A stretch of 64,000 bases of DNA from Cyanophora paradoxa CCMP329 (Eukaryota; Plantae; Glaucophyta). Position 1 is the first letter of the stretch, and each line of letters starts with the position of its first letter. Positions 9,477-63,686 of the stretch are shown here, one piece after another. Both the position numbers and the translations under genes were made by a program. The notes below the pieces were generated by a model. That model searched no databases. It saw only the letters and a list, made by a program, of their open reading frames with translations, and was not told the origin of the DNA. The stretch lies in contig QPMI01000104.1 in the NCBI GenBank assembly GCA_004431415.1, forward strand, positions 248,001 through 312,000, written 5' to 3'.

Positions 9477-9960
9477 ATGATAACCACACCGATGATCAAT
9501 CGCGCTAGCTATATATATATATATTAATTGTTACCCGCTTCGGTTTCCGTGGTCCGTTCGGACGTGGACCAGAATCTAACCCGAGGCTGCACTGCCACTG
9601 GCAGGACTGTTTATATATATACAAGTCCGAACACCTGCTCAAGTAACAGTGTACCCAGTTGAGTTGAAATCGCTTACTACGTATACGGCGAGTCCAGTCA
9701 AAAAGCTACAGTCTAAAACTCGGGCGACTTGGTGATTGGTCAATTAAACCCAGCAATTCCGATTGGCCAGCTAGCAAGCGGGGGGGGTGCGGGGGGGGGG
9801 CGGAGCCCCCCCTGCTTGTTATATAAGTATAGCTGCACTGCGACAGCCGGCGCCTGGCAGCTGCAGCCTCTGCATGCGCACTGCGCAGTGCGCATGCGCC
9901 GCGGCGCGCAATACTACCGTAGTACGGCCCGCGGCCCGGAATTGAACTCTCTAAGAATCT

Positions 9961-10396
9961 CTAAGAGAGGAGGGCGCCCCTGAGGGAGGCGGCGGGGTCA
10001 GGGGGGAGGCCGCAGAAGGGGCAGCGGGCCCCGCCGGGCCCCTCGAAGCACTCGCCGCAGAGGGCGAGGTGGCGGCACGGCAGCGCCAGCACCGCCCGCG
10101 GCCGCGCCCCGCACGCGAGGCACGCCCGCGCCTCGGCGGCGCTCGCCTCCGCCAGCGCCGACGCGACGGCCACAGCCCCCGCCGCGAGCCGCTCCTGCGC
10201 CCGCCGCAGCTCCGCCGCTGAGAGTCCGGCGAGGGCGGCGGGGCCGACGGGCGCGCTGTCCGCCAGCGCCGCCTCCAGCGCCTCCACCCGCGCCCGCAGC
10301 GCCCCTGCGAGACCGTCCGCGTCGGTCGGGCGGGGAGGAAGAAAGGAGGGGGCGGGGGATGGGGGCTACCGCTTCAGCCGGGGAGTGCCCGCGGGA

Positions 10397-10457
<61 letters not shown>

Positions 10458-13400
10458 GGGCAGCGACGGCCTCGCGGCGAGCGTGGAGGGCATCGGAGGA
10501 GGCGGCGGCGGCCTGCGCAGCCGATCGGTCAGCCAGCTACAAAGTGGGGCGCCAGGCCGGGCCCCTGGCCGACCTCGGCCCGGGCGGCCTCGGCGGCCTT
10601 CTCCGCCTGCGCCAGCCGCTTCCGCATCGCCTCCGCCTCCGCCGCGGCCTGCGCGGCGCCGTCAGAGGCCGGCGCGCCAGCGCCGGCGCTGGCGGCGGAC
10701 GAACAGCGGCGAGGTCGGAGCGGGCGCGCGCCGCCTCCTCCCGCGCCTCCCGCGCCGCCCGCTCCGCGCTCTCCGACTCGATCCGAGCCACCTGTACCCC
10801 GTCGGGAAGGGCGGGGGGATGAAGCGCAGGGGGGGCACCTCGGCGTCGGAGGCGAGGCGGGACTGTGCGGCGGAGGAGGCGCGGAGGGCCGCCGAGAGCC
10901 GAGCCGCCTCCGCCCGTGCCTGTACCCCGCGCCCGCCGGCTCGGCGGGGGGGGGGGGATTGAGTGAGAGGGGTACCGCACCGCTTCGAGGTCGGCCCGGA
11001 GCCGCGACAGCTCCTCTCCTGTACCCCTCCTAAGACCGGCGGGGGGCGGGGATGGGGGAGGGGAAGGGAGGCGGGTACCGGCGAGGGGATCGACCCCTGG
11101 CCGGGGTACGCCGGAGTTGTCGGGCCCCGAAGCCGTGACCGGAGCCCGGTACGAGCCCATCAGCTGTGGATCGGTTCAGAAGGGAAAGGAGGAGGGGTGC
11201 GGTGGGCGGCGTGCACACCTGGTCCAAGGATATGTCGGCATCGATGCTTTCTGTACCCCCCGCGGCCCCCGCGGCCCCGCGCGCCCGGGCCGCCCGCTCG
11301 AACAGCGCGTCCGCCTCCTCCGCCCTCCCCAGCGAGTACAGGACTGCCGGGCGCCGCATCAGCAGATTCGGAGCCTCTGAGCGGCTCGGGCCGGCGCCGG
11401 GGCGGACCGCGGGCGAGGGACTCGGCGACGGGCGCGCAGGAGGGGTGATCGGGCCCCGCCGCTGCCTCCTGCATCCCCAGAGCCCGCTGCGAAACCCGCT
11501 CAGCTCGTCCGACTCAGGTGAGCGCGGGCGAGAAAGGCGTACCCGGAGCAAGGGCGCGGCCTCCGCCGCGCGCCCCTGCTCGGCAAGTGTCGCCCCCAGG
11601 GCGGCCAGCGCCGAGACCAATCGGGGCCCTTCGGGAGCCGACCCCGCGTCCAGCACCTCCAGCGCCCTCTGCGGCGCGGCGTGAGGGGGGTACGCCGAAA
11701 TTTTGTCGGGCTCGGGCGTACCCTGAAGAGGGCCTCGGCCTCGGCTAATTCCCCCCGGTGGAAGTAGACCTCGCCCAGGCCGCAGGCGCAGCTCACCTGA
11801 GGACCCTTTCGTTAGGGGCGCGCGCGAGGGCGGCGGGCGGTGGGGCAGGGGGGTAAGGGCCTGCGCGGCGCGGAGCTCTTCCGGACGCTCCTCGGAGGGG
11901 GCCGCGTCGAGGGCAGCCAGCGCGCGCTGCGGGGCCGTGAGTGGAGGTGCGGGCGGGAGAGCCGGGCGAGGGGGGGTACGGCGTTCTCGCCTTCAGCGGC
12001 GCCTCGGCGGCGCCGTCCTTGCCCCTGCGGCTGTACGTGACGGCGAGGGCGCAGCAGGTCCCGATCGCGAGGGGGCTCAGCCCGAAGGCCGCCTCCTGCA
12101 CCGCCAGCGCCCGCTGCGGGGCCAGCTCAAGGTAAGATCTAAGGATGCACAAGATCTTAGGATCTAATCGTATTCTTAGAGGGGCTTTAAAGCAATATCT
12201 TAGCACAAGATGGAGAGATTTGGGGGATCTTAGGATCGGGATGCTTGAAGGATGAACGATAAAATTCGGGCGCGCCTCCAGGAGGGCCTCCGCCTCGTCG
12301 TGGAGCCCGCGGCCGGCGCACGCGTCCGCCAGCCTCTGCAGGCTGCGCGCGGCGGGATGCGTGAGAAGTGAGGGAAAGGGAAGGAAGGGAGGGCGGGGGC
12401 CGCGCCTGAAGGCGGTGCGGGGGTGCTGCGGCCCGTACTCCGCCTCGCTCGCCGCCAGCGCGCGCTGCGAAGGCGAGAAACACGGTTCAGTTCCAGTGAG
12501 TTTCAGCTAAGTTTCAGTGAGTCAGTGAGGGACTCCGGGAGAGGGCGCACTCGAAAGAGGGCTTCGGCCCTCGCCAGGTCGCCCCGCTGCATGCACTCCT
12601 GGCCCCGCTGCGCAGGCGGTCGGCCAGCTGAGCGAGACGGCGGAGTGGATGGCGGAGGCGCGCGGACCCGCTCAAGCTCGGCGAGGGCGGCCTCGGGTCC
12701 CACGGGCGCCGCCTCGCGATCGCGCCCCGGCGGCTGCTCGGCCTCCTCCAAGAGCGAGGCCGCCCGCGCCCCACGCGGAGCGGGGCCCTCCGGGCGGCTC
12801 CCAAGCTCCTCCAGCGCGCTCGCCAGCTGCCCGGTCGGAGGTCAGAAGAGGCGGCGGGCCGCTCCGCAAAGTGCGCAAGCGCACCTGCTCCGAGAACGAC
12901 GCGCCGGAGCGCGGGGCCGGGCCCCGGGCGCCCCCGGCGGCGCGGCGGGGGGTACGGAGCCGGAGGAGCCCGGGGCCCGCGGCGCGGCCCGCCCCGGAGC
13001 CGAGCGCGGGGCGACCCTCGAGGGGACGCGGGGACACCACAGCGGCGCCTCCGACTGCCGAGGCGGAGGCGGCGGAGGTGGAGGCGGCGGCGCCGGCGGC
13101 GCGGCGTCCCCAGGTCCCGGGCTTGCTCCCGCCGCCGCCCGAAGACGCGGCGCGCACCCGCGAGAGGGGCGACATCGGCGCCTGTGGAGCCTCTGGTGGC
13201 TCCGAGGAGGTGGAAGTGGAGGGGGCGGGGGCGGGGGCGAGGGCGCTGGGGAGGATGCCGGCGGCGCCGGCGAGGGAGCCGGAGAAGGAGGCGCGGCTGG
13301 CGGGGGCCAGCGGGATGCCCGAGAGCCCCACCTGGCGAGGAGGCCGAGTCAGATCTAGAGCCGATAAGAACGTAAAGCAGAGACCGATAGCTGGGGCGCA

Positions 13401-13682
13401 GGCGGCCTCACTGAGTAGACCTCCTCGATGAAGGAGATCGCCTGCGACTGCCTGCGACGCCCCCACCCCCGTGCTCAGATGAGATCTGAGCCGGGCCGGG
13501 GCGGCCCCGGACGCACCGGTAGGCCCGCCCCCCGACGGCGAAGTGCTGGCTGGAGGCGGGCGCGGGGAGGGAGACCAGGGCCGCCTGGGAGCGGCGCGAG
13601 GGCGCGCCCCGCGCCTGCAGCGCCTGCCGAGTGCTCCCCCGTCTCTATGCACATCTCGACTGTAGGGCCGCCCGAGGCTCAT
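9961..13682 (-). CDS. TPR-repeat (kinesin-light-chain-like) + coiled-coil + C-terminal RING (C3HC4) protein, probable E3 ligase, copy 1; 5' end uncertain
   Basis: Exons such as RALEVLDAGSAPEGPRLVSALAALGATLAEQGRAAEAAPLLR, VSCACGLGEVYFHRGELAEAEALFR and RALAASEAEYGPQHPRTAF; Ala/Glu-rich coiled coil; last exon CLACGARPRAVLALPCRHLALCGECFEGPGGARCPFC; TAG stop at 9961. Confidence 0.8.
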
Positions 13683-14273
13683 GATCAGGGGCCAGGGCCC
13701 CTTGGAGGGGCAGGGGGCTCAGCGGGGGTGGAGGGAGCGTGCCGAAGGCCGGGGCCGCTTCTGACCTGACCGCGGGCCGCCCCCTCGGCAGCTGATGGGC
13801 CGCAACGATCGCGGGTACCGCATCGAGGCCCCCGAATCCGTCGCCGACAACCGCGAGGTCTGCCCGCGCGCCCGCCCCCGTGGCCGAGGCTGACGCCGCG
13901 CTGCTGGGCCGGGCCGGGCCGGGCCGGGCTAGGCTGGGATGGGCCGGGCTGGGCTTGGCAAGGGCTAGCGGCTAGCTGCAGGGGAACAGACGCCACCCGC
14001 GCCGCCTCCCGAGGCCCGCCTGGGAAATCTAAATCAAACCGCCTCCGTCGGCGCCGATTGCAACCGCGCCGCGGCAGACCTTCTTCCGCCCCTCCTGCCC
14101 GCACCCCATGGCCACCCCCTCAACCCTCCCGTCCACGGGCCACAGGCTCACAGCCCCTCTCTACCCCTCACGGCTCCGGATCCTGTCGGACGTGGTATCG
14201 CAGAGCAAATATATACTCAATCCCAGTTCAGCTATCGTATTCAAGCGATTGAACTCTAGTACTGGGACCTAGG

Positions 14274-16529
14274 CTAAACGGCGATGTCGGTGGTGTATGC
14301 CTCGAGCTCGGTGTCGGCAATCATCTGCAGGAATAAAATAAGGCAATTATTGCAAGCCGTGAGCGCGAGCTCACCAAAACCTCGGCGTCCACCTCTTCAT
14401 CTATCTCCACGCAAACGGTATCGATGCCAATTGCAACGTCGGCCTGAGCATCGATATCGATATCCTCGTCATCGACATACTGCGAGACAAGAATCCGCAA
14501 GCGAGATATGTGCATATTTGAATCGACCGACTTGGGAAAACAAAATTCGCACACCGGTACCTTCAGTTCGGCCTCATCCACCAGTGCAACGGCATCGTCA
14601 AGCTGAGCAAATGTACCTTCGTGCGCATGGAGATTTACGTGGTGAGTTTTTCGGATTCAATATTCGCGCATACACTCGATCTTTGAAGTTCGTGCTTACA
14701 ATCGAGCTTGTTCGTGTATCCAGGAACAGTATTGCAATCGAGGCGGAGATTGGTCGACCTGCCTGGAGGCATCACTTCGAGAGACCTCAAAAGTAACAAT
14801 TTTAATGCGAAGAGCAAGCCGAATCTAACGCACGCGGCCTTGCCCCAAACTTCGACCTCGCTGAAGTTCATGTACTGATCGGTCCCTGCCGAATTCGAAT
14901 CCGCTCAGTGGAAGATCGCCAAGTACTGGTACTAGTTGAAATCGGCGTCGACGTCTAGCTCCGGTTTAAACACAACCGCCACACGCACCAGCTGACGACG
15001 TTTTCGTGATCCGAACGGCGTCCCCTGTCCGTATCGAATTCGAACAGAATTAAATTCGAAGTGTGTGAGTTTCTTCGAGCTCGACGTCATTGATCGTAAA
15101 ATTAAAGCGGAATCCGAAATCCGAAATCGCATGGAGGTCACTAGAGGTCAAAAAGTTAAGCGCACCGACAGTCCCCGACGACGGAAGCACGTGCTTTGTC
15201 AAGTTCGTGACAGTGGAATCGAACACGGGGCTGGCAATCGTTGGAGACGTGTAGACCTGCATCCGCCCGAGCTCATGATCAGCTCGACTGGAATATATAT
15301 AACAGCTGGAACAGAGTTCTTGCACCACTTTGCCATCATTCAAAACCTGTCAGTTCGAAGTCAATGCGAACTCGACGTGAGCTTATAATTCCAATTAAGA
15401 GATCGAAGAGCGGAAAGACTCTCGATCGACGTTCGGACGCGAATGTAAATGCGCTTGCCTCGTAAACGATGTTCTTGAATCGGGTCCCAGCGTTACCTGC
15501 GTTGTCTCAAAATAAGCCCTGTGCGTGATTAGAAGAACGTCATTCCTGCACGTACCTGAGCGCTGCGCAATGCAAAATGCGGGCGAGCGTCATGATCAGT
15601 TGCACAAACATTGAATTCGAACTTCTAAGCTTCTTGATTGATTTAACATCGCGCACGTTGTAAACGTCAATTTGTCCGACCGTGTAGTCTTTCTGCAGTG
15701 CAAAGGGTCAGGCTTTATTCGAACGCGGGGATGAAAACCCTAAGTATTCGAAATGTGCGCTTACGCCAAGGTTGATGGTGATGGCAGGCTTCATATCGGA
15801 ATCTGATGAATGATATCCGCGAGCACTGCCAAAGTCCCCAGACTTTCCTTTTCCATCTGTGCGCGTGCATCGCAAGCAGATCGCACTGCAACAATAAGTT
15901 CACTCGCAAATATTGATATCATGCGCACCGGTGGCCAGCGTACTGGGGTAGTCGGAGGTATCTGACGATAGGAAAGGGATGCGCGTTCGGTCAAACAAAT
16001 GTGCGCGTGCATTGGAGACCGTTGACGAAAGGAGCACATTGAGAGGTCGCATTTGTCGAAGCCCCCAGAGCAACGTTCTCCCAACCAGCGGACCTGCCGT
16101 TCCGATCGCGGCACGGTGAGGTTAGATCCGGATCCGGCAACGCCAGCATAAATATAAGGGACGATGAATCGTACTTCATGGAGTTCACGTGGGGTGTCCA
16201 GGCGTCTGCGCCCGCGATCGGCGCCGCGGCCGTCGATGTCGACGTCTGGAGCACCTCGCAACCATATCCCATGCCTTCAGACTCCGTGAAACGCCAGGAT
16301 TTAGCTCCAACAGGCGTGCAAGCGTTTGTTGCTTTCGCTATGTGTTGGCCATATTCGTCCCCGAAAGGATCTTTCAACACTCCCGTGTCCCCATTAAGAA
16401 GGGCGGTCCCCGTGCAGTCCGCGTTGGCAAAGCAGGTAAACTCTGTGGCGCGAACGGCGTCATGCATATGATCGTGATCAGCACGTACCAGCGCTCGAGC
16501 TTCATCGCAAAGCACGCACTGCCGCCCAT
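14274..16529 (-). CDS. F-type lectin (F5/8 type C, fucolectin-like) protein with one lectin domain and an acidic tail, copy 1
   Basis: Spliced product ENVALGASTNATSQYTSDYPSTLATDG...GYHSS...KPAITINLGKDYTVGQIDVYNRSGNAGTRFKNIVYE...MNFSEVEVWG matches the NVAL..A.DG..H..LG..VYNR..EVEV F-type pattern. Last exon MIADTELEAYTTDIAV-TAG. Start MGGK inferred. Confidence 0.75.
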
Positions 16530-19038: not shown

Positions 19039-19863
19039 CCGTCGGGCACTAAATTACCGCGGCAGAAATTACCGCGTTCCAGGAGGGGACCCCGCCGGGG
19101 TCGTTCGCGTTATTCAAGCACACCTCTATCTACGTGACCGAGGCGTGCTACTCTACTGGCGCCCGCCCCGGACAGCGGGGGCGCGGGGCCACTATGAATA
19201 GGTATATGTAGAAGTGTTGGTGCTAGAGACCGAGGTGGAAAACCGATCGCACGGATGAACGGAGGCGATGTCGTAGATCTACAAGGTATGCATATATAAA
19301 AGCGTGCCGGACCGGACCCGTCGGGGCATGGGGACGCCCTCTAGAGGGCTGGTGCGTCAGGGCAGCCAGGGGCCGCCCCGCGAACCTAGTCCGCCACGCG
19401 GCGAGTAGAGCTGACGCCCCCTAACGGGCGCCAGGTGCTCGTCTCCGGAATGCTAGAGCGGCGTCTGGAAAGACTAGTGGTCGTTGAGGCGAGCTCAAGG
19501 TGGGACATCGACTGAAAATAAGCACTGGCTGGTCCCTACGGCTATGTACATGAGTTTGTAGTCGACGTGCTCATCTAAAAATTCGATGGGGCTCTACATA
19601 ATAGGTACTGCTAGCGGCGCTATAGCTAGCTGAGGAACGGAACGGAACGGAGGAAGGGAGGGAAGGCCCGAATACAAAAAGGAAATGAGGACGCCCGGCC
19701 GCAGGGGCCGTCTCTGCTAGTGTTCGCCGTCGTCAAGGTGGGAGGCCCACCCCGTGGCCGCCGCCGACGCGGCCACGGGTCGCGCTGCCGCACACCGCGG
19801 GCGCGGGATCGGAGGGTCAGGAGGGCGGGGCCGCGGCCGAGGCCACGGGCATGCCGGCGGGGG

Positions 19864-19900
<37 letters not shown>

Positions 19901-21215
19901 CGCCGCATTCGCAGGGCCCGAGAGGAGGTGGACCAGAGCCGGCGCCCGGGTCGCCGCCTGGCAGGGAGGGCCGGGCGACGGGGGCCGGGGGCGGGGGCGA
20001 GGCGGGGGCGGGGGTGGATCGATGGAGCAAGAAACTGAGGCCTGGGACGCGGAGAGTGAGGCGCGCGCGCGCCATGGCGGCCCGGCGCCGGCGGAAAAGC
20101 GAGAAACGGTGGCGCAGGCACGCTGCCAGTGCAGCAACACTAAAAAGCGCCATGTCTCTTCCTGGCCGCTCGACGGGCCGCCCGGGACGGTATATGCACA
20201 GCGCCCCGCGAGGGCAGGCCGAGCGCCGTCGGGGCAGGCCACGTCGTCGCATGCGCAGACATGGGACGGCGAGCGGTATTCGTGGCTTAAAAGTAGCGAT
20301 ATCGATGCAGTCGTGCAGCTATGAGGGCGTACTCGGCTGCGCGCCGAGGGCCTAAGCGACGTCTCCAGTCTCTAAGCGGCGGCCGGCGCCGCGGTCGCTA
20401 GATCTGGCTGAAGTGCTATAGCTAGTGCGGACAGGGCGGCTGTGCCACGGGGCGGTGGGGCAGCGCGCGGGGGCAGCGCAGGCGGCTCCCTGGCGGTATC
20501 GAAGCCCGGTGTCGATGATCGCCCTCGCGTACGCCTGCGCGCGCCCGCGTGCACGAAGCTGCCGAGTGGAAAGCGTGAGCCCGAGCCCGTGATCGACGGA
20601 GCGCAGAGCATCGGTGCCTATGAAGAGCAGTTAAGAGCGAGGGGATAGCGTCCTGGTGGCCGCGGTTGGCGACCCTTGCCCAGTTCGCGTACGCGATCAG
20701 CGAGCTCGAGGGCCGCGCTCCCGATCGGGCGGGCGGGGCCGGCTGGACGGCTGTTCGATCGCACACTGAGCTATCTGCGACTAGGGCTGAAGGCCGGCAG
20801 CGACTGCTGGCGCGCGGAATGCGAGAACCGATACGCTTGCTCCCTGGGAGGCGTGGCGGCTTGGGGAGGTTTTCGGACACGCTGCGGAGTCTCTGCGGGG
20901 GCCCACCGGTCGCCGCTATCCCGCGCGCCCTACTCTACGCTCCCGGCGTGCTCCCAGGGGGGTACCGGATTTTTTTTTCAGAAATTACCGCGTTTAAAAA
21001 CGCGGCCCGCCATAGAGCAAAATACCGCGGTACCAAATTACCGCGTTTTTACAAATTTGAGGCTTGTATGGGGCGGCATTTGGGGGGGTACTGTATGGGG
21101 CGACCTCTCAGCAACAAATTACCGCGGGATCAAATTACCGCGTTTTAACAAATTCTCGGCGCGGTAATTTGGTACCACGGTAATTAAGTGGGCGCGGTAT
21201 TTATGTGTTCTACGG
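19039..21215. mobile_element. Tc1/mariner-type MITE B (261 bp when empty, at 32690-32950), here carrying a 1.9-kb insert
   Basis: TA|CCGTcgggcactaaattaccgcg versus right end (reverse complement) TA|CCGTagaacacataaataccgcg; many aaattaccgcg motifs; shares tgtatggggcg with MITE A. Confidence 0.65.
19079..20978. mobile_element. 1,900-bp copy-1-specific segment between 16-bp direct repeats, ending in oligo(T)
   Basis: cagaaattaccgcgtt at 19063-19078 and 20979-20994; the site is single and empty in copy 2 (~32714-32729). Only decayed, unrecognised ORFs inside. Confidence 0.75.
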
Positions 21216-22782: not shown

Positions 22783-22825
<43 letters not shown>

Positions 22826-51000: not shown

Positions 51001-54000
51001 CATTCGAGTTGTTATCAGCAGTGGACACGACTACATTGATCGTCACCAAATCGTAGAGGCGATACGATGTATCGTTGGAGGGGTATGTGGTGAAACTGCA
51101 TTCAATAATTCCTGAGTCATATTATTCGCAATGTTAAACTCCATATATTCAGGGAGCTTTTGGACCTGAATTCCCGTATCCGGAAGCGGAAGCATTGCCT
51201 GGCAGCACGATCGTCGATTTCAAGCTGCCCAAGACGCTTGCAGATGCACTCGCGCTGAAGTGCACCGAAAGCAGCATTAAAAAGGGCCTGCAATACTCTG
51301 GCTTCATACTGATAAAGATCCAGGGACATCCTGACATCCAAATCACCGAGAAGGGCATCGGTCCGTGCTTCGTTTATTTAATTATGTACTGTCTGGTTTT
51401 CATTCGTTCTTGCATCGGTTGCCTGCAGACGTTCCTGCCGCGAAGAATCCGCTCGTGTTCTGGGGCTCCGCCTTTGTCCCCGCTGGCTTCCAGATGCGAA
51501 TGCTCAGCGCGTTTGAGTTCTGGCAGCTGCAACCATCAGTGTGGACTGATTCGAGTGCCGCGCGGGCCGAGCCGCAGCGCATTAATGTATACTTCACGTA
51601 TCTCTCGGGACTGCCCGTCAAACATCTCCGCCGATCTTTTGTGGTGCATTGATATTCCGAGCTTGAAAGCTTACTTGCAATTGCATTGAAGCCGATTCCT
51701 CGCATATGCATGCTCACAAGCGCTTCGATTGCAGGCTGTGCGAGCCGCGGATGAGAGTCAGAACTTCGATCCCGAATTTGATCCGTCCACTGCCTCTCGG
51801 GATGTTATCATGTCGCAACTGCGCGATGGGTACAAGAAAGCTGGCATGGATCCGAATTCACGTGCGCCGATTCTCGGCTGGAAGATTCAATGATTGATGG
51901 CTACCGCTGAAACGCCTTGACCATGCCTCAGGCATCGACACGTTTCGTTTGCAGACGCGAGACCAGTTGGCACAGTTGTACAAGCAGTGTGGAGGAGAAA
52001 GACTTACGAATTTCGGGAAAATCACAAAGCGAGATCTCACAAATCGCGTGATTGACGTCTTGTTCGGCTCAAGATCTGGAACCATTGAGGTCTGAATCAA
52101 TATCGCTGTGTACTTATACATCATGTTTTGAATCTCCCTGCAGCAGCCGCGTGCAGGAGATCTAGAGGCTTCTCCTAGCCCGAGGCCTTCTGGACTTCCG
52201 AACCGAGCGAAGTCGAAGTCAATGTTGAGCCAGCTTATCCGGAAAGCGTTGGTTCAGGTTGGAGACACGCTTGAGCTGCGAGGGTGCACGTGCATGGTAG
52301 GGCTCAGAATTCATTATAGCTGAGTCATACTTTCGCAGATTTGTCTAAATTTAACTTCCGCAGGTCCTCGAGCATGGGCGCGTCAAATTTGTGGATAAGG
52401 ACGGTGCGACTCACACATCGACTGGAGCAGCTTGGGCCAAGTCGGTCCTCAAGGAAGCCGGCGCCAAAACCGTACCCCACACAGCCCTGAAGCAGGCGTT
52501 TGTGTACCCCGCCGCTGGAGGCGCGCCCATTTCTCTCGCTTCTCTGTACCAGGCGACATCGGCTCAAGACAAGATGTTGGAGATCAGCGGCTCGAGCTCA
52601 GTTCCGGCAGCTATAGCCATGGACGCTGAGGGGTCTCTGCAGGAAGTTATTCGTCCAGCGCAGGGTGTGTGGTGTTTGTTTGCATCAATATTCATCCATC
52701 TGTTTGCACCTCAAAGGGGATGCAGCATTTGACGTCAAGGAGGAACGGATGGTTGTGAAAGAAGATACCGCAGCTGCAGCCGAGCCCAAGCCCGAGGAGT
52801 TTGAAACAGAGACGGATGATGATGAGGAGATCGATCTGAACAACCCTTTGGTGCGCGCGCTCATATGCTTGCGTCTATCTGTCGGTTCTCTTTACGTTCT
52901 CTTTTACATGTGTTAATATATAAAACCCTTCTTGACGACTGCATTTCGCAGAGTGCAGCAGTGCGCCTCATGATTCCGCTGGGAAAACTCGACAAGGAGG
53001 CTCGATTGCGCCTGCTTGAGCGGCTCAAGGGTGCATGCGGAAAACAGGTTTGCACGCTCGCCGACCTGTGCAATGAGGAGGCCTTGGGGGTCGCGTTCGA
53101 CGAAATGGTGTCAGCCGGGTCGATGCTGAGCGTGCTCTCGCAGGCGGTCTGGTGCGAAATGACACATAATCGCAATTACTTATATATATATATAAATGCA
53201 TGATAACCGATCGCTACGTTTCAGGGGCGGCTCGGTGAGCGAGGTGGCTCTAGAGGAAATCGTCCTATCTAAGCTAAGGATATGTGATGGAGACTTGGAG
53301 AAGCTCCTCATTGGATTTGGAGCCCAAGCAAAGCAGCTTATTGCAGAATTCGGGATTTCAACTGGAAGTATGGGTGCCAAAACATCCGTGCGCCTCCTGT
53401 TGTTCTGGGGTGTTGGGTAGATTGCTTGTCATGAAGTCCGCACATAATCTCTCCTCGCTCACCGTTGCAGACAATGCGAGGCTATCTGTCTGAAGTCCTG
53501 AGAGCAATCTCTGACTCCGGCAAGAGACTTACAACCACTTTGTTTGATGACGTGGCGGCAACAATTCTGGCGCACACGCTGCAATTGGATATCCATGTAT
53601 TCTCCCGGGTCCGTTCTCTTCTTACCCACTGTACATGTCTTGCTTTCCAACTTTTTCTGCTCTTAAAGACGGTCACAGAATGCAAATCGCGCAGTCTCCG
53701 TGAAGAGCTTTGAGACTGGAACAGAAGGATTGAAAATTCTCAGCAATCGTCATGTGGTCATCTTGGCACAGAAGAGGCTGAAAAACCGTCTCGAGTACGC
53801 TCTCTATCGGGCAAAGAATGTTTTCCAGGATGGTGCGCATGAAGTTTTTGTTTGACTTGAATTCGACTTTTCAGAACTCAAAATGCATTCCACAGATGAG
53901 TTTGTTGATAGGGTCTCGATAAGCACTATGGAATCTCACGCGACCGCAGCGCATGTTCAGAAAGAAGACTTTAAATGGGGTGCGCTTGCACCTTCAAAAT

Positions 54001-57000
54001 TTCCTCTAAATAGTCGACTGATCAGACACTCAGATGTAAAGCAAGGTCCGCGCCTGGATCACAGTAATCCAGATGATCCTGCAACGCTGGAGGTATGTAA
54101 TCCTTGCAATCTTTGTCGTCCAACACGTTAGTGAATTGAAGAAATCCGACCGCTCAGACCCGTATCTCTGAAGATAGAACGCAATTTGTGCTGGTTCGCA
54201 TAAGTAACCGAACGGGAGTGGAAGAGATCATTGGAACGCAGCCAGTTCTCCGTAAGCGGCAGAAAAAGATGACGACGGCTTTGGATGCTGCATGCATCCG
54301 GGACTACTTGCGTGAACTGCTCCAACTTGATTCTCAAAGCATTGGTGTGCAACGCCTATCAAAGCTTCATCTGCAATGCTAATCATTTGTTCAGGGCAAG
54401 AGAGAGTGTTTGACCTCGTCCAGAAGTTGAAGGACGAGGCGATGGATGTTTTCTCGTGTGGAAAAGGCACTGGTGCAGAGAATTACGTCGAAAACGCCGA
54501 GAATATTCGAGAGATTGTGCGTTCCCGTTTTGATGCAAGCGATCGTTGACATCGTGTATTGATGCGAGCGGCAGTTGACGAGCGGCATGGCAGGCCCCAA
54601 CTCACCCATTGCCGAACTCATGCTGCTTCGCGTTTTCTTGGTGGGTTACACGAAGTCTGGTATGCTCTCGCGCTCAATGCTGTGAACTCTCGAATTATGC
54701 CTAGCGTGACTTTTACGAAGGCAAATCAACGTTGCTGTCGAGCCTTCTGTACAGCGGCATGCCTTCCGCGGAAAAGTATTCTCGCTTGATTGGCAGAGTC
54801 AAAGAAGTTTTGGGGGAACGCATCTGCTGGCACCCCGCCACATCTGACGTGCGCATGCGCTTCAATCTAGATATAGAGATCGCAAGAGATGATACAACCG
54901 CAGTTTTATGGCTTCGTGAGTGGCGCGACGCTGCCGGATGACCATGAGCAGAAGATGAGAGCGCTGGAGGAAGTCGGCTTCAAGGCAGCGGCTGCAGCGG
55001 CGGCAGCCAGTATATCTATTAGAAGTGCAGACGTTGATGGCGATTCCAGCTTCATGTGGCAGCTCATGCAGAAGCTCGAGGAGCGGGCCGGACCCGCATT
55101 GAAGGACAAGTTCGTCCGCGGCGTTCTTCTTCCCGCAATGGACGTGAACGCAACAACAAGGTGGGGCACCTTGCGATCTCAACGTAATCGTTGATCGTGA
55201 TCTGACTTCACTTAATTTGCTTGAACAGTGTGTCCGTCTTCGCCAAGCTGTCCCCCTTCCCGTACTGCATCGTCTCCTTCATCACCGAGGCCGAGCACGA
55301 GAGAATCAAGGTGGAGGCGTTGGAAGCGCTAGACAACATTCAGCAAAAGAAGAAGGCGAATACGAAAGGGCGCGGGAAGCGCTCCATGTACGACGCCGAA
55401 GATTTAGATGAAGCCGAGGGAGAGCCCGGATCTGCTGATCAACATGAGGAGAAAGTTCTGCATGCTCTCTCGATGGTGGGCAAGGAGGGTCTCGTCAACG
55501 CACAGGGCAAAGGCTACGACCAGATCACGTGAGTGGAACTTTCGCTACGTTATAGTACATCTTCAGACCTTCCTCCTTACTGCTTGATAAGGCCTGCCGA
55601 TCTGGAGTTCGACGAAGAGATCGCCGAGATGAAGCGCCTCTACGGACGCAACCTGATCTATGTTCCAGGTGATTTGGTCGCTCCGTCTGGCACTGAACGA
55701 CGGTGTCTGACGATGTCTGACTTTTTTTATTGTGCAGGGACCGAGAGTCGGGATGACGCCCTGTTCAGCCTCCAGAAGACGCTCGGCCTCTTCACCACGA
55801 ACGGGATTCGCAGCTGCTGGGGTCTCGTCAAGAGCGCCGAGTTTGGAGTGCCAAGCAAAGCATGCGACGGTTTTCTCTTCGTCAGTTCCACCCTTTGCCC
55901 GAAATTTCGGCCCCTCTGACGCAATTATGTTTTTCTCAGTGCGATTGCGTTGGCTCTAGCAGGATTGATACCGTCAGAAGGGCAGCTGCGGCGCATTCGG
56001 AGTCAGGCGGAGAGATCGACGTCCTGCTTCACGTTGTGGTCCATCAGAACACGCCGTCAGATGTCTTCCCCGATCTGAATGGCCCTATCCGCGCTCTCAT
56101 CCTGAATCCTGAAGACCACGCGGTGAGGCTACATCGCAGCCCGCAACCCCTAATATAACGTCCGTGCATGCACTGCGGCAGGTCGTGTTGGCCTACGATG
56201 CTCGCAACGGGAAATCGTCGAAGGGAGAGATCTCCGAAGAATACGCGAAGACGCTGGAGTCCGAGGTGGAGCAGCGCGTCATAAACACCGAGTGGCGACC
56301 GCGGGTCTCCGAAATGATTCCAGATGTTGAAGAAGGCGCCACAGACAAAGACGCCCCCCACATCGACGAGGAAGCAATGTGCGAGCCCCTATGATCACCT
56401 TAATTGGACATGCGAGCCTACGTATACGTAGTTTTAATGCAAATGGTTCCACAGAATGAAACGTTTTTTCTTCGTCCCTTACTGCGCCGCACCATCATTC
56501 ATGAAGGCGCAAGCAAAGGGCACTGGAGAGGATCCGGATGACAAATTGGAGAAGCCCAGGCTTGCTGCGCTCTGCCAGAAACTTCGAGATCTGCATGCCG
56601 ACATCGCCCGGCGCCGCGTGCGCAAACGATTTCAAGACGAAATATAATCCAATGTCATTCAGAGCTTTCGCCTCCTCTATCACGTGCGTTCTGAACATTC
56701 CATTGCATCTGCACCTTGCACATTTAATTAATTTGCGATCCATTTAACTTAAGAAGTTCACATGACACTGCAGAGCATCACACTGCAGACGCAGCCCTTC
56801 TCCGCAGAAGACCGCCGGCGAATCGATCAAGAACTCCAGCAGGCAGAGAGGCGGCTGCGCGAGACAGTGCAAGCGTTAAAGAATTTGGGCTTCCGGGAGC
56901 TCTACGACGCGATCGAGCTCTGCGAGGAGCGCATCCGTTCCCTCGTCCTCGGTGCCTACTCGCGGCTCGAGGTCTGCAATCGTGATTTTTTAAATAAGAG

Positions 57001-58305
57001 AAAGGTTTGCTTATCGCTATCTCCCTTTAAATTATCACTACCTTCTCTCTCAAACTCGGAACTTCTCTCACATGTCCATACGTGCCGAATGCAGAAACTT
57101 CTGGAGAAGTGCAGCGAAAAGAGCACCGGAGTGTTGGAGAGGATCTTCAAGGAGTGCAAGGAGCCGTACTTGTCCAAGGGCTCCCGCAGGCTGCTGCAGC
57201 TCCTCAAGGCTGAAGAGCCCGAGAACGCGCCCCTCTTCGCGTGCCTGTTCGGCGATTTCCTGAGCAAGCTTCCGACTAGCCTCGTGAGCCAGCTGAAGGC
57301 ACAGTACGCCAAGGTGCTGTCGAAGGGGACGGAGGCGGACCCACGGCCGGCCAGCATCCAGGCCCTCCTGGAGAAGCGGCTGGCGCTTGACAAGCTTGAG
57401 TACCGGGGGCAGAAGGATGATTCGCCCCTCGTCAAGAAAATGGCATCGCGTATTCTGAAAGACACAAAGAAGTTCGCTCAATCCTTTTTCGTCTACTCTT
57501 CTTTGAGCTGATCTAATGGCTTTGCACCTTAGGACGCTGCAGGAGTCCATCAACCGGTACTTCGACATGGAGCTCCCGTCCAAGCTCGACAAGTTCATTG
57601 GCACGACACTGAAGGAGGCGTTCATTGGCACACTAAGGGCGGAGCTTGAGTACTACCTTAAGAAAGCGATGGTAATTAAATATTGCAAACAATTACAACG
57701 ACCAAGCTTCTTCTGGCTTTAATTTCCCTCGAGCTCGCTCTAATCATGATCCTCGCTGTGCAGAAGAAGAAGTTGAACTCGGAGCGATACAATGCGCTTC
57801 TGCAGGCCATGGCGGATCCCTGGCCGGGCAGCGAGAACACGAGCTACGAGAAGTCCATCATCAACGTGTGCGACAAGGTCAGCGATGTTGTGTACGGTTG
57901 TGTACGGTCGCACGATGTCCGGTTAGAAGCTTAACTTGTCTCTACAGGTTGAAGGCGAGATCGCGAAGCAGTTCGGCAAGTTCAAAACCAGTATCCCTGA
58001 AGGATTCCGCGATATTGTTCTCGCTCGGGTTGAGGAGCTCGCGAACACGCGAAAGAACCCCATCGCGGACGTGAACTCGGACATCGGCGCCAAGCGCAAG
58101 GTGATCATGGAGAGGCAGTGGCAGCACCTGATCAAGCTCCTTAATGTTGTTCTCGAGACTGCACAGAAGCATGATCTTGTGACGTACGTGAACATCGCTT
58201 TTTTGCATCCGATCGCGAGACGGCCGCAGTTGATTAATACGGCATCACAGGATCCACGATCCTGTTTACGACGCCTTCCTCGACCTCCGAGCGCAGGGCA
58301 CCTGA
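48043..58305 (+). CDS. ~2,200-aa multidomain protein: atypical protein kinase, SAP/HeH-like, RAMA-like, inactive OTU-like, dynamin-like GTPase and helical C-terminus; about 40 exons
   Basis: A manual exon walk with GT-AG introns keeps one frame from ATG 48043 to TGA 58305, with one weak donor near 50768. Kinase motifs LGDGCSGSV, VAVK, IHCDVSTSN, LADSA and SDMYGVG. GTPase G1 VFLVGYTKSGKSTLL, G2-region LLPAMDVNATT and G3 FLFCDCVG. Confidence 0.8.
48355..48780 (+). repeat. Two ~212-bp C-rich tandem repeats in the ~910-bp first intron of the kinase-GTPase gene
   Basis: ctgccactcgctttcctgttcagtgcacctgatacccc at 48361 and 48573; long C runs (G-quadruplex-prone on the minus strand). Confidence 0.85.
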
Positions 58306-59226
58306 TCATGAGCCCGATTCCTAACTCAACGTTTGACGTTTACTGGTCTAGCTAAGATATCAATCTAGGATTCGAACAATTTTGACGATTATTTCGAGTC
58401 TCGGATGCGTCTCTACAAACTGTTTGCTTCTCTTGTATGTTTAACGCTTGGCTGCTTTCGGCTGCATCTCAGATATCGATGTAATTATAATATTGATATT
58501 TGATATTGCGATATCTAGATATTGAGTAGAAGAGATGTTTAGACCCCCTAATGTTTAGCTTGCCGAAGCGGATAATGTTTAGAAAACCACACGGCCCTGG
58601 GACGCGCGCGGGCCGCGGCCGGGCGCGTCACGGCGTATATACGTAGCGCCGTGGCGGGGCAGGGTCGTTACAGAGCCGGGGCTTATAATTATAGCTAGCA
58701 TTATAGCTCAGCGGCTAGAGCGCAGTGAAGCGAAGAAGGATTTCGATTAAAATATTCGTCGAGCGTGATGCGAATTAGTGGGGAAGCGGGGGCGGGTCGC
58801 GGGGCGATGCTCCGGTATACGTAATCATGAGGGGCAGAGCGGATCGATATCATGCGAAGGGCGGGCTTCAAATTCGCACTCCGGTCCTTTTCAAGGCGTC
58901 TAGGGGCGGTGAAGGTCGACGAAATCACAGCCCCTCAGATTTTGGATACGTATACCGGACCGCGCCTAGGAGGAGGCCTAGCTTTATATATAGGCCTAGG
59001 AGCTGGGGGAGGCCTGAAAGGCCTAGGGTCGCAGGGGCTGATGCAGCACGTAATTGCAGCGGCCGAAGCTAATGAACACGCGGCAGCCTGGGGCGAACAT
59101 GTACAGGCTCCAGATTCTAGCTAGAAGCGAATTCGAAGAAGCACATTCTACGAATCTATGAATCCATCGAAAATCTAGGAAAAGATCTATAGCTAGATAT
59201 AATTGGCTGTCATCATGATCAGGACA

Positions 59227-62200
59227 CTACGCGGCCTCTTGACTCAGTGAAGCCGGACGGCCGCGGGTGGGCGGCGGCGGCGGGGCGGCGGCGGCGCCAG
59301 GAGAAGCAGCGCTAGCAGGCTCCGCCCCCGCGGTGCCGGCGGCGACGACGCCCCCGCGCAGCAGCGAAGCGGAGGAGGAGGTCGTCGACCGGGAGGCGGA
59401 GCGCAGGGGCGGGGGCGGAGGCCGCGCGCGGGGCGACGCGGCGTCCGCCCCTCGCAGGGGCGGGGCTGAAGAGGCGAAGGCTGAGGGCAGGGGGTGGGGG
59501 CGGGCCCCGGGGCCGGCACCCGGGCCGGCCTCGAGGCTCGCCAGGGCGGCCTCGCGCTCCATGCGGTCCTTCGCCAGGCGCCTGGGGAGGAGGGCGGGGG
59601 CCGAAGCCGCGCAGAAGGTCAGGCACGTCCTCACTGATGAGAAGAGAAGGATGAGGCGGGGCGGGGCTGGGCAGAGAGCTAGCCCCGATGCCTCCGGTGT
59701 TCCAAGCTAGAGCACTGGAGCACTAAGAAGCGCTGGGGCTCCCCGGACGGGGCGCCGCTCACCTGACGTAGAGCTTGCCGCCGACGGCGAGGATGGCGAG
59801 CGCCGCCACCCCGCCCAGCGTCCCCAGGATCGCCGTCCTGCTCCAAGTCAGTTTGATCGCAAACCGAGCGATCAGATCTAAAGTAAAGGAAGGGAGGAGG
59901 CTCGAGCTTGGGGGCGAGGGGGCGGGCGCGCCGCTGGATGGGGCCGGTGTCGGCACGGGCGGCGGCCTCCTCGGCGGCCGCCCGCTCCCGCTGCGCCGCC
60001 GCCGCCTCCGCCCGCTTCCGCTCCGCGTACCTGCCGCCGAGCGCGAGGCTTAGGCTTGAGAGACACGCCGAGCAACATGAAGATTAACATCTAATTGAAG
60101 ACTACTCGAAGCTTGAGTTCTGCGGAGGCGAGCGGAGCGAGGGGGCGGCGCACGGGTCGGGGAAATCGAACTGCGTCTCCCCCGGCTTCGGCAGCGGCGG
60201 CAGCTCTGCTCAGGCCTCATGATCAGTTGACGTAGGCTGACAGAGGGCTTGTTAGGGGTCTTAGTTAGGCAAGGCTGACAGAAAGTATGTTAAGCCTTAT
60301 AGTTAGGGATCTTAGTCAAGGTCTCAGGCCCGCCCCGCCTCGCACCGCGGGGGAGGACGTGGAGTCCGAGGGCGAGCGGGGCGGCCGCCCGCAGCGGCTC
60401 CTGCCCGTACAGCGCGTACACGTCGAACCTGGGCGGGCGAGCGATCGGCGAGCAGTGGTTAAGCAGCTGCAAGGAGCGCGCGCACGAGATGTAGCCGGGA
60501 AAGAGCGTAGAGTTCGCGACGTTGCTGCGGACGGAGGGGGGCGTCAGCGGGGGGTATGCGGGGTGGGACATCGTAGCCTAGGGTTAGTGGAGGGGGAGGG
60601 GGGGAGGGGGGGTACGGGGCACCGGAAGCTCATGTCGACGCCGCCCTCGCTCAGCTGCGACTTCACCCCGTCCGCCACTGCGCCCGGCGGCATGAGCCTA
60701 CGACAAGAGAGAGGGAAGCGAAGTCACGGGGAGCACCGTCGGAGGACCAGAGCTGGGGCTGGGCCTGCTTGTCCCCCACCCGGCCCCGCCGCCCCTGCGC
60801 GAACTGCGCACGTACCCCTGCCGATGAGACTGCTGCTGGACGGGCCGGCCGGGCCCCCCACCGGCCCTCACCGGGGCGCCCTCGCGGACGTAGATCGAGA
60901 GCTGGAGCCACTGTACCCCCGGGTCCAGCTGCACGGCCGGCACCAGGGGTCCACCGTCCGCCCACTCGCAGCGGAACGACTGCGCCGAAATGCCGACGAA
61001 TCAGATGAATCAGATTGGGTCGGGAGGGGGGTACGCGGTTCGTGCACGTCGCAGTCCGCCGGGCGATCCGGGTCCACGACGGTCCTATGAGCAGTCAGGG
61101 TCGGGGTCGTTGAGGACAGATGGGGAGGGGGGTACGCACTTGCAGTGCGGGGGTAGCATGCCCAGGCAGACGCCGTCCTCATTGAGACCCGAAGTGAGCT
61201 CGTCCCTGGATCGCCGGCCTGCGGGGTGGGTCGGGTTAGGGGGGCACGCGTTCGGATGGGATGAGGGGGGTACGGGGGTACGCGCCTCGGATGGAGAAGA
61301 GCGGCCCGCTGCGGAGGGAGAGTGAGCAGCCGGGCGTCGCCGCAATCCTTGGGGGATGAGAAAGGAAGGGTACCGCGTTCGGTTCTGGGGGGCGCCGCTT
61401 TTGATGATGGCAAAGTAGTATCCCCCCGCCGACGGAACCCACTCGGGGACCTGAAGGCGCCGGGTTTGAGGCGGAGGATTGCTCGAAACAAGGGTATCCC
61501 CACCTTGTAATCGGGGTACAGCTCGTTGTCCGGCGCCTGCGCAGAATTCAAGCAGCCGAGAGAGGACGGACAGCTAAGATCTACAAACTACTATAACTGC
61601 GCGCCTCGACGGAGACCAGGTGGTACACTGCGAGCGCCTCTACCGTCAGAAAGAGAGGTGGGCGGTAAAGGGAAACGGGGTACCGTGGTCGGGCCAGTCG
61701 CTCTCCTCCCGCAGCAGGACAATCGTGACGAGCGCGCCGGGGATAGGCCCCTCCTGCGCGCGCCGCGCGCTGAGCCCGTCGCGTCCGATCGAACGGAGTC
61801 GCGGAGACAAGGCTCCCACCTTGTTCCGCCACGCGATGCGCTGCGGCGACTGCGAGCCGTACTCGAAGGTCCTGAGAACGCGCGGACGCCCGCGGCCGGC
61901 AGTTACTCGGACGCGGCAGGCGCAGGCGTTGCAGCTGCCCCGCAGAGACGCACGTATCTGGACGCGGGAACTGTATGTACACTTCGTCTGCCGCGGGGAT
62001 CAGCTCTAGCGGGCGGCAGTCACAAGGACGCGGGCCGGGGAGAGCCGGACCTTTGCAGTTCGCCATCTCGGCGATAGGAGCGCACTCCGCTGCACTGTCG
62101 TTCGCCGGCAAGCCTGCAGCCGGCGCGCAGGTACGGGAGCAGGGAGACCAGGCGCATCCCGCGAAACTCCCCGCGCAGGAGGAGCAGGTCGAGTTGTGGA

Positions 62201-62270
62201 ACGCAGCGCAGAACGCCGCGCCGTCTCCGAGGACCGCGGGCAGCAGCGCAAGCAGGAGAAGGACCCGCAT
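59227..62270 (-). CDS. Type I membrane protein: signal peptide, N-terminal PSI-like Cys domain, ectodomain, one TM helix, Pro/Ser/Ala-rich cytoplasmic tail
   Basis: MRVLLLLALLPAVLG leader; CSSCAGSFAGCAWSPCSRTC; TM AILGTLGGVAALAILAVGG (~59775-59835); many short introns; middle exons only partly resolved. Confidence 0.7.
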
Positions 62271-62459
62271 TGTTCCGTGACGTGTACTCCCCCCGCGAGT
62301 CCTCCCCCCATCAAAGACTTCGTTTCGCAAGCAACTCGTCGTTCCCGGCTAGCACAGCGCTAGAGTGACACGGTGACACCGCGACCGTCGGACCCTCATG
62401 TGCACCGCGAGCGCACCAATTTGGCGCCCTTCGAAGTAAGCCCTGGCGGGGCCGGGGCC
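62271..62459. promoter_or_regulatory. Probable bidirectional promoter between divergent start codons
   Basis: Only ~190 bp separate ATG 62270 (-) and ATG 62460 (+). Positional inference only. Confidence 0.5.
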
Positions 62460-63686
62460 ATGGCGGCTCACGACGCCGCTCTCACAATCCAGGTCCGCAC
62501 CGCCCAGCGCCTTCGGGGCCTTTGCCGCGTCCGGTTGACGCTTCTGAGCAATCGCGCACGCCGCAGATCGAAGGGGATACGCATCCACTCGGCGATGTCC
62601 CTGTCCGCGACGGTGACACGCTTGCTACTGTGAGAAAGGTCCGCCTGCTTTGCGCGGCCAGCGGTGCTCTCGAAAGATGTGCCAGCCGCGCACCGCCGCG
62701 GCGGCGCTCGCGGCCGCAGCGCCGAATCTAATCGCGCCTCCGCAGGCGGTATGGACAGGATTCACGAAGCTCCCGGCTGGCTTCGACTTTCGGTTCTTGA
62801 TTCGCATCTCTGGGCGTTTGACTGCGGTTGGCATCAAGGATGAGAAGCAGATCTCGGCGAAGCAGCTGCTGCCCGGGGTTCGCGGCCCTTCCGCAGGCCC
62901 TTCTCTCGACTAGGACCGACGAGCGCGGCACGCGCAGGTTCTCATTCGTCGGGCTGACCTCTGCGCTGCGGGCCTCCAGGCTCATCCAGGTCCGCCCCCG
63001 CCCCGCGGAGGCTGCCGCCCGCTCGCGGCTGACCGCCCGCGCGCCAGCGCCGGCGCCGGTCGCGCACGCGCACGACGCCGCCGCAGCCGCCGCCGACGCG
63101 TCGGGCATGCCGCGCGTGTTCGTCACCTACGCGGCCGAGGACCTCGCCGCCGCCACGCGCGTCTGCGAGTACCTCTCCACGGCGGGCTACACCTGCAAGT
63201 GCGCCCGCCGCCCTCCCGCCCCCTTCCTTCCGACCGCCTGATTTATCCTCGCAGGATGACGGTGCCGAACGCGCGGTACCGCTTCGAGAAGGCGATGCGC
63301 GGCAGCGACCTGGTCGTCCTCTTCGCCTCGCCCTTCTCCGGCAAGTCCGAGCACGTCCTCGAGGAGGTCTTCTACGCCCGCGAGCTCCGCAAGGTCCGCA
63401 CGCGCGCGGCTCCCGGGCTCCGGGGCCGGCGTCGACGGTACCCCTCCCTCAGATGGTCTTCACGGCGTTCCTGGCGCCCCAGAAGCAGTGCGGGCTCCAC
63501 CCCGTCGTCCGCAAGGCCGTCAGCCCTATCTACAGGCGCGCCCCTCCCCTCCAGGAAGAGAGAAGGCCGAGCGGCTGACGCCCGGCGCGCAGCGTGGACT
63601 TCCCCGAGGGGCAGGAGCTGGAGGCGCCGCCCTTTCTGCTCGCCTGCAAGCGCCTCGCCAACGGCATGAAGCTCGCCCTCCGATGA
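62460..63686 (+). CDS. ~250-aa protein with an N-terminal ubiquitin-like beta-grasp region and a C-terminal TIR (TIR_2-like) domain; 8 exons
   Basis: Spliced TIR region RVFVTYAAEDLAAATRVCEYLSTAGYTCK-MTVPNARYRFEKAMRGSDLVVLFASPFSGKSEHVLEEVFYARELRK-MVFTAFL. N-terminus LTIQIEGDTHPLGDVPVRDGDTLATVRKAVW...FRFL. All introns phase-compatible; TGA at 63684-63686. Confidence 0.8.

What the first reader, a model, noticed from the sequence alone, without database searches (positions are those of the whole stretch)
9954..63686. Possible eukaryotic 'defence island'
Seen: nearly every intact gene in ~54 kb carries a domain class linked to innate immunity (F-type lectin, TPR-RING, non-RD kinase/RAMA/dynamin, receptor-like TM protein, TIR), amid tandem amplification, pseudogenes and young transposons. 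Established: defence genes cluster in bacteria, and R-gene clusters are unstable in plants. Inference: a recognition-ubiquitin-effector locus in a microbial eukaryote. The functional linkage is hypothetical.
Basis: inference. Interest (0 to 1): 0.78.

Follow-up and report, generated by a model that had tools for sequence, protein, structure and literature searches.

The report
Duplication zone with immune-type algal genes
This 54-kb stretch of the alga Cyanophora paradoxa is mostly three repeats of one two-gene unit, plus decaying gene copies and three kinds of immune-type gene (a TIR protein, sugar-binding lectins and a species-specific fusion of a DNA-binding domain to a likely dynamin-like GTPase), so it is likely a gene-duplication zone rather than a coordinated defence island.

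Summary
The DNA is Cyanophora paradoxa (contig tig00000411). But 60% of the span is three copies of one two-gene unit, so only five gene types plus a dead aldo-keto reductase are present, and two of the five carry nothing immune-specific. The TPR repeats are under purifying selection (dN/dS 0.09). The TPR-RING and reductase transcripts seen come from paralogues elsewhere. The big fusion gene has an in-frame stop before its stalk. None of 9 published Cyanophora TIR proteins lies beside the other RAMA-GTPase loci. Enrichment over background could not be measured: an illustrative count gives 0.25 to 6.6 such clusters by chance if 1-3% of genes are immune-type. Best reading: a birth-and-death duplication zone (0.6); a true defence locus remains possible (0.25). 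The most interesting part is the RAMA + dynamin-like GTPase family: four loci, found only in this species, an architecture my searches did not find in print.

The parts
9961..14109 (-). TPR-RING gene, copy 1: low-complexity N-terminus, TPR repeats, coiled coil, C-terminal RING; 17 exon cores open; start codon tentative
   Evidence: (Pfam on copy 2)
14274..16529 (-). F-type lectin gene, copy 1: one lectin domain; recombinant of module A 5' part and module B; acidic tail; no signal peptide could be modelled
19079..20978 (.). 1.9-kb non-autonomous insertion with 16-bp target duplication; DNA contigs also show the empty site
   Evidence: joint 19077/21018
22341..26364 (-). TPR-RING gene, copy 2; 3 frame-breaking gaps in exon cores (real or assembly error)
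26544..30177 (-). F-type lectin gene, copy 2: two lectin domains (module A 28566-29740, module B about 27106-28370), 79% identical; cores open
34077..38080 (-). TPR-RING gene, copy 3; 5 frame-breaking gaps in exon cores, probably read errors
38253..41863 (-). F-type lectin gene, copy 3: two domains, 10 gap bases in exon cores
42289..42610 (+). Two tandem ~150-bp poly(A)-tailed units with 9-bp target duplication (SINE-like)
42948..44119 (+). 1.17-kb poly(A)-tailed insertion with 17-bp target duplication (non-LTR-like, no RT found)
45164..45578 (-). Relic fragment of a fourth TPR-RING copy, 82-86% identical to the others
45870..47338 (-). Aldo-keto reductase pseudogene: three in-frame stops in conserved motifs; spliced RNA contigs differ from it
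48043..58306 (+). Fusion gene, about 2,200 codons, one spliced transcript: non-RD kinase (49339-50564), unknown alpha/beta domain, RAMA (about 52210-52560), OTU-like stretch (recalled motif only), P-loop GTPase (G1 54644, DxxG 55943), helical stalk. 5' exon at 48043 tentative. Annotated as several genes (g570, g571 and upstream)
56645..56647 (+). In-frame TAA before the stalk; the paralogue g576 reads through this position
   Evidence: RNA spacing 829 of 829 bases and no base difference listed there
59227..62270 (-). Type I membrane protein: signal peptide, Cys-rich N-terminus, one TM helix, low-complexity tail without signalling domain
63107..63686 (+). Stand-alone TIR_2-type protein, 4 exons, 135 aa, Glu at the expected catalytic position (position recalled)

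Best explanation
The region is a tandem-duplication and decay zone of the Cyanophora paradoxa genome in which extra, recombined or broken copies of a few gene families have piled up, and its immune-type genes likely work independently rather than as one pathway. Shown: unequal recombination has multiplied a TPR-RING + lectin unit and changed lectin domain number (one domain in copy 1, two in copies 2 and 3); short non-autonomous elements have inserted; the reductase is dead and the big fusion gene carries a stop. Inferred: the TPR-RING is an ordinary substrate-binding E3 ligase whose working copy lies elsewhere; the lectin domains bind fucose-type glycans with two specificities; the TIR is likely an NAD+-cleaving enzyme; the RAMA-GTPase family likely binds DNA through RAMA and oligomerises through its dynamin-like GTPase and stalk, as a nuclear DNA-surveillance or chromatin factor, with a kinase added in this copy and the stalk lost by the stop.
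For: Three copies fill 32,335 of 53,733 bases. Copy 1 lectin is module A in its 5' part (3 substitutions in 869) and module B in the rest (5 in 1,844), while the adjoining TPR-RING differs at dS 0.15. TPR-RING dN/dS 0.21 over 552 codons, TPR part 0.09 over 257. The spliced TPR-RING contig matches neither copy: 14 of 22 listed alleles equal copy 2, 8 do not, and it keeps a 27-base stretch that copy 2 lacks. Reductase has three stops and RNA differs from it. Fusion gene has TAA at 56645. Two of the four RAMA-GTPase family members lie on other contigs and lack the kinase. 0 of 9 listed Cyanophora TIR proteins have EukProt numbers near any RAMA-GTPase locus (against 55). The genome is 29.4% repeats (PMC6704402 passage).
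Against: TIR is rare in this genome (9 listed plus this one among 25,831 genes; list downsampled), and it lies between two dynamin-like paralogues (g570/571 and g576, five gene numbers on). If strictly immune-type genes are under 1% of the genome, such a cluster is expected less than once (0.25 at 1%, 0.03 at 0.5%). The two lectin domains differ mainly in the N-terminal, ligand-loop half (25 of 83 against 8 of 71 positions, Fisher p 0.006, boundary chosen after seeing the data), with dN/dS 0.53 (0.33-0.90). The RAMA-GTPase family has no relative outside the species among 1.84 billion representatives, as fast-evolving conflict genes often do.
Confidence: 0.6

Rival explanations
1. A genuine eukaryotic defence-enriched locus: selection keeps lectin sensors, a TIR NADase and DNA-sensing dynamin-like GTPases together in an unstable compartment, as in plant R-gene clusters, though probably not as one linear pathway.
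For: Three of five gene types are immune-associated and individually rare; a second RAMA-GTPase paralogue follows just past the window; lectin loops diverge and domain number varies by recombination; weak PADLOC hit of the GTPase to LeoBC (E 0.03); earlier unchecked notes describe many integrated viruses in this genome.
Against: TPR purifying selection; no NB-ARC, NACHT or LRR among 302 fragments scanned (exon-level, low sensitivity); membrane protein has no immune domain; fusion gene truncated; RAMA fusions in eukaryotes are mainly chromatin proteins; listed TIR genes are dispersed.
Confidence: 0.25
2. Much of the apparent amplification and pseudogenisation is an assembly effect: copies 2 and 3 are one locus or two haplotypes laid in tandem, and the frameshifts are uncorrected long-read errors, leaving a short run of ordinary genes.
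For: Copy 2 against copy 3: 17 substitutions but 53 one-base gaps in 9,632 columns, 47 of them in copy 3, all beside the same base; the assembly was made from PacBio RSII reads.
Against: Copy 1 differs from copy 2 at dS 0.15 and has a different lectin domain number; copies differ by TSD-flanked insertions; the reductase stops and the fusion-gene stop are substitutions, not indels.
Confidence: 0.15

Closest known systems
Plant R-gene (NLR) clusters (recalled)
   Same: Tandem copies, unequal recombination that changes domain number, pseudogenes, transposon insertions, a TIR gene
   Different: No NB-ARC/NACHT or LRR found; the repeated gene is a conserved TPR-RING, not a diversifying receptor; no pathogen link shown
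Prokaryotic defence islands (recalled)
   Same: Unrelated immune-type domains (TIR, dynamin-like GTPase, kinase) near mobile DNA
   Different: All genes are intron-rich host genes; no recognised defence system (PADLOC best E 0.012-0.03); enrichment and strain variation untested
SLIP-GC/NUGGC-like and bacterial dynamin-like GTPases (Dynamin_N, DUF7605 clusters)
   Same: Atlas features 0.97 for the GTPase-stalk part of g576; G1 and DxxG motifs followed by a long helical region
   Different: No sequence hit outside Cyanophora; about 300 residues between G1 and G3; N-terminal RAMA and, here, a kinase; fold not confirmed
RAMA-domain proteins (MPND, CcrM C-terminal domain; PMC4738411)
   Same: Predicted fold matches 6pbd Z 9.7 and 7ydt Z 8.8 over 82-83 residues
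   Different: The passages read list fusions to JAB, SET, PHD, RING, methylases and McrB AAA+, none to a dynamin-like GTPase (figure and supplement not seen)
F-type lectins (AAA, MsaFBP32; PMC5712786)
   Same: h2DGx cation motif in both modules; His...Arg-x-Asp...Arg fucose motif in module A; tandem domains differing in the loops
   Different: Spacing H-x27-R-x-D-x5-R; module B lacks the Asp; no cysteines; no signal peptide modelled; such domains are already reported in many algae and algal viruses
Stand-alone TIR_2 / ThsB-like TIR proteins
   Same: 135-aa single TIR with Pfam TIR_2 on two exons and a faint ThsB_TIR hit
   Different: Below Pfam cut-off at exon level; not among the 9 Cyanophora TIR rows of PMC13142454 supplement 1, all of which are multi-domain

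Membership tests
Defence island | Defence genes enriched over genome background | tested here: inconclusive
   No genome held; illustrative binomial gives 0.03 to 6.6 expected clusters for 0.5-3% immune-type genes
Defence island | Same gene classes recur together at other loci | tested here: inconclusive
   0 of 9 listed TIR proteins near the three RAMA-GTPase loci, but the list is downsampled and lacks the window's own TIR
Defence island | Association with mobile DNA | tested here: met
   Three TSD-flanked insertions and MITE-like elements; the genome is 29.4% repeats, so this is weak
Defence island | Presence/absence variation among strains; induction on infection | not testable with these tools
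   Only contigs of coded runs were available; depth cannot rank genes
Plant-type R-gene cluster | NLR receptors (NB-ARC/NACHT with LRR or other repeats) | tested here: not met
   No such Pfam hit in 302 exon or ORF fragments covering copy 2 and the unique genes; hand-built models show no P-loop in TPR-RING
Plant-type R-gene cluster | Tandem copies reshuffled by unequal recombination | tested here: met
   Recombinant lectin gene in copy 1
Plant-type R-gene cluster | Diversifying selection on the recognition domain | tested here: inconclusive
   TPR dN/dS 0.09 (not met); lectin 0.53, interval 0.33-0.90, changes concentrated in the loop half
F-type lectin | Fucose motif H-xn-R-x-D-x4-R/K | tested here: met
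   Module A near-canonical (x27, x5); module B lacks the Asp (motif from PMC5712786). Rests on my exon model, no RNA support
F-type lectin | Cation motif h2DGx | tested here: met
   Present in 2 of 2 modules
F-type lectin | F-type jelly-roll fold; Pfam F5/8 type C match | tested here: inconclusive
   Exon fragments gave no hit; the spliced domain was not scanned or folded
Dynamin superfamily | G1 and G3 GTPase motifs | tested here: met
   G-x4-GKS/T and DxxG conserved in 4 of 4 family members that cover them; MMR_HSR1 E 0.001
Dynamin superfamily | GTPase followed by helical stalk | tested here: inconclusive
   Present in g576, g7068, g9056 by alignment and atlas features; cut off by TAA in the window's gene; model pLDDT 40, no fold match
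RAMA domain | RAMA/CcrM-CTD fold | tested here: met
   Paralogue g7068 model, Z 9.7 and 8.8, next row 5.6; region aligns to the window gene through g576
RAMA domain | Binding to (6mA) DNA | not testable with these tools
   Needs a binding assay
Immune non-RD kinase (IRAK/Pelle receptor-kinase type) | Non-RD catalytic loop | tested here: met
   HCD
Immune non-RD kinase (IRAK/Pelle receptor-kinase type) | IRAK/Pelle lineage or receptor architecture | not tested
   No TM or ectodomain in this gene; kinase family not placed. HCD also occurs in DYRK-type kinases (recalled)
Enzymatic TIR | Catalytic Glu on helix C; NADase activity | tested here: inconclusive
   Glu present at the recalled position in my model; activity untested

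The most novel reading that the evidence does not exclude
Cyanophora has an unstable chromosomal compartment of antiviral genes, the first defence-island-like locus in a glaucophyte, centred on a new effector family in which a RAMA DNA-modification reader is fused to a dynamin-like GTPase (with an optional kinase) to sense and coat the DNA of the viruses that integrate in this genome, beside a TIR NADase and lectins with recombining sugar-binding domains.
Probability: 0.2. Interest if true: 0.75.

Novelty: new variant of a known kind. Interest (0 to 1): 0.36.

Why it matters
If immune genes cluster in protist genomes, guilt-by-association mining, which has been so productive in bacteria, could be applied to microbial eukaryotes. 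This window alone does not show that. What it does offer is a small, species-specific RAMA + dynamin-like GTPase family in a cultured alga. That family can be tested directly for DNA binding and antiviral activity.

Tried and rejected
No whole genome was held, so no background count. Pfam on single exons missed the kinase, RAMA, dynamin and lectin domains; these calls rest on motifs, the atlas and a fold. Atlas on the N-terminal part of g576 gave no usable hit. The GTPase model was too poor to search (pLDDT 40). PDB sequence searches gave nothing under E 0.1. The protein for the kinase half was not found in the database. No related locus in metagenome contigs (72 pattern matches, 0 confirmed); the alignment was too divergent for pattern scans, so viral contigs were not searched. 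No Rfam match. No listed run is on record as RNA; the spliced joints show that the laid contigs are transcripts. Three such runs gave no contig over the lectin genes; this is not counted as evidence of silence. DNA contig depth was not used as copy number. A 45-base intron that would skip the TAA was rejected because RNA spacing fits exactly without it. A TRADD-N-like reading of the domain after the kinase and an inactive OTU-like reading of the stretch after RAMA are recalled resemblances; neither was confirmed. Paper searches: Cyanophora with TIR terms gave 0, 0 and 4 irrelevant papers; defence island with protist terms gave 12 listed, none on this by title or abstract start; SLIP-GC with dynamin gave 1 irrelevant paper. 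One stretch of my big-gene model (49482-52363) is still 12 bases longer than the RNA spacing.
Full report
Source and layout. Proteins that match the window's exons at 99-100% are EukProt entries of Cyanophora paradoxa, tig00000411_g570 and g571. No whole genome was held. Self-comparison shows three tandem copies of a ~12-kb unit and a fourth relic; the copies fill 32,335 of the 53,733 bases of the finding. Each unit has a TPR-RING gene and a lectin gene on the minus strand. To the right lie a reductase, a 10-kb fusion gene, a membrane-protein gene and a small TIR gene. Genes are cut into many short exons, so I modelled them by hand in scripts and scanned single exons or ORFs against Pfam (109, 89, 104 and 18 fragments). 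These scans covered copy 2, the unique genes and the spacers, not every frame of the window.

TPR-RING. Five fragments hit TPR families below cut-off and one passes the RING cut-off. All 17 exon cores of copy 1 are open; copy 2 has 3 and copy 3 has 5 frame-breaking gaps. Copies 2 and 3 differ by 17 substitutions and 53 one-base gaps in 9,632 columns, all 53 beside the same base, so most of these 'pseudogene' lesions may be errors of a PacBio RSII assembly (PMC6704402, passages read; its supplement could not be read, and may hold domain or expression tables that bear on this). Copy 1 against copy 2 gives dS 0.153 and dN 0.031 over 552 codons, and dN/dS 0.09 in the TPR part. This is purifying selection, the opposite of a diversifying receptor. 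The one long spliced contig listed (run X1, 1,954 nt) matches neither copy: of 22 listed differences from copy 1, 14 equal copy 2 and 8 do not, and it keeps a stretch that copy 2 lacks. A further, expressed paralogue therefore lies elsewhere.

Lectin. Exon models give two complete 153-154-residue domains with the h2DGx cation motif. Module A has H-x27-R-x-D-x5-R and module B lacks the Asp, against HX24RXDX4[RK] in PMC5712786 (passages). Pfam and PDB searches on the short exons found nothing, so the call rests on motifs in a model without RNA support. Copies 2 and 3 have both modules. Copy 1 has one, with the 5' part of A (3 substitutions in 869) and the rest of B (5 in 1,844): a recent recombinant. 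The modules are 79% identical, dN/dS 0.53 (bootstrap 0.33-0.90), with 25 differences in the first 83 positions and 8 in the last 71 (Fisher p 0.006, boundary chosen afterwards). This suggests two sugar specificities. It is the best local sign of recognition-type evolution, but such domains are common in algae and their viruses, and I could not model a signal peptide.

Fusion gene. A 7,268-nt spliced contig (run X3) spans 49074-58601, so the kinase and GTPase parts are one transcript although the annotation splits them. My model fits the RNA spacings exactly in two stretches (1,446 of 1,446 and 829 of 829) and is 12 bases long in a third. The fit requires an in-frame TAA at 56645, where paralogue g576 has an open frame; no base difference is listed there in four runs. 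The protein therefore probably stops before its stalk. Kinase motifs are present, with HCD and DSA in place of HRD and DFG. The link between non-RD kinases and immunity concerns IRAK/Pelle-type receptors (recalled) and was not tested. A search of 1.84 billion representatives with the GTPase-stalk part of g576 found 5 proteins, all C. paradoxa, from four loci: this one (two annotated pieces), g576 on the same contig (56% identical), g7068 and g9056 on other contigs (26-27%). The last two begin at the RAMA region, without a kinase. The atlas places the GTPase-stalk part with SLIP-GC-like and bacterial Dynamin_N clusters at 0.97 (not calibrated for parts of proteins); the structure model was too poor to confirm this. 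The RAMA call is solid: residues 19-117 of the g7068 model match the CcrM C-terminal domain (Z 9.7, rmsd 2.5, 82 aligned) and MPND (Z 8.8, rmsd 2.1, 83 aligned), with the next row at 5.6. PMC4738411 (passages; figure and supplement not seen) lists eukaryotic RAMA fusions to chromatin and ubiquitin domains and none to a dynamin-like GTPase. My searches found no paper on such a fusion. I infer a DNA-binding, oligomerising GTPase; whether it watches foreign DNA or works on chromatin is open.

Other genes. The membrane protein has a signal peptide, one TM helix and a low-complexity tail, with only a faint TSP1 hit; nothing marks it as immune. The TIR is a 135-residue stand-alone domain with TIR_2 hits on exons 1 and 2. 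Three insertions have perfect target duplications and two MITE-like elements have terminal inverted repeats; no transposase or reverse transcriptase was found.

Is the grouping more than chance? After collapsing copies there are six loci, three of them immune-type in the strict sense. With 25,831 genes, the expected number of six-gene runs with three such genes is 0.03, 0.25, 2.0 and 6.6 if they make up 0.5, 1, 2 or 3% of genes. These fractions are assumed, and the class was defined after the fact. Supplement 1 of PMC13142454 (all 9 Cyanophora rows read; methods passages) lists 9 TIR proteins, scattered in EukProt number and none near the RAMA-GTPase loci; the table is downsampled and omits the window's TIR, so TIR is rare but the neighbourhood test is weak. 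In favour of the island, the TIR lies between two dynamin-like paralogues. Searches for Cyanophora with TIR terms and for protist defence islands found nothing relevant; a 2026 preprint on protist immunity does not use the word island (passages).

Verdict. The region behaves like a birth-and-death duplication zone that holds a few immune-type genes (0.6). A selected defence locus is not excluded (0.25), and part of the amplification may be an assembly effect (0.15). No evidence links the genes into a recognition-ubiquitin-effector chain. The lasting lead is the species-specific RAMA + dynamin-like GTPase family, best studied through its intact member g576. Interest 0.36.

Noticed in passing
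window 5073-9055: A 4-kb near-perfect palindrome (93.9% between arms) with ~160-bp tandem arrays in both arms and no credible Pfam hit in the left-arm ORFs scanned.
   Followed up: no
window 1-3400, minus strand: An intron-rich gene with a likely signal peptide, running off the window; no Pfam hit in 32 fragments.
   Followed up: partly
window 56645-58601: The 395 codons after the premature stop stay open, have GC3 0.79 and are about 61% identical to the paralogue, so the stop is recent or read through; the annotated start of g571 lies inside an intron that the RNA splices out.
   Followed up: partly
window 14274-16529, 26544-30177, 49075-58306: The lectin and fusion genes have GC3 0.56-0.79 against 0.92-0.97 for TPR-RING and TIR, suggesting a different origin or mutational history.
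   Followed up: no
window 17500-18015 and 44343-44685: A 4,758-nt spliced RNA contig ends in this MITE-like stretch and continues in sequence absent from the window, probably the parent autonomous element elsewhere.
   Followed up: no
window 19063, 42931, 20979-21300: Two unrelated insertions both landed in short TACCGC-containing repeats, hinting at a preferred target.
   Followed up: no
window 63590-64000 and beyond: 2.6-kb RNA contigs of two runs hold the last TIR exon and run on past the window's end; the paralogue g576 lies a few genes further.
   Followed up: no
window 48342-48774: A C-rich 212-bp duplication inside the presumed first intron of the fusion gene.
   Followed up: no
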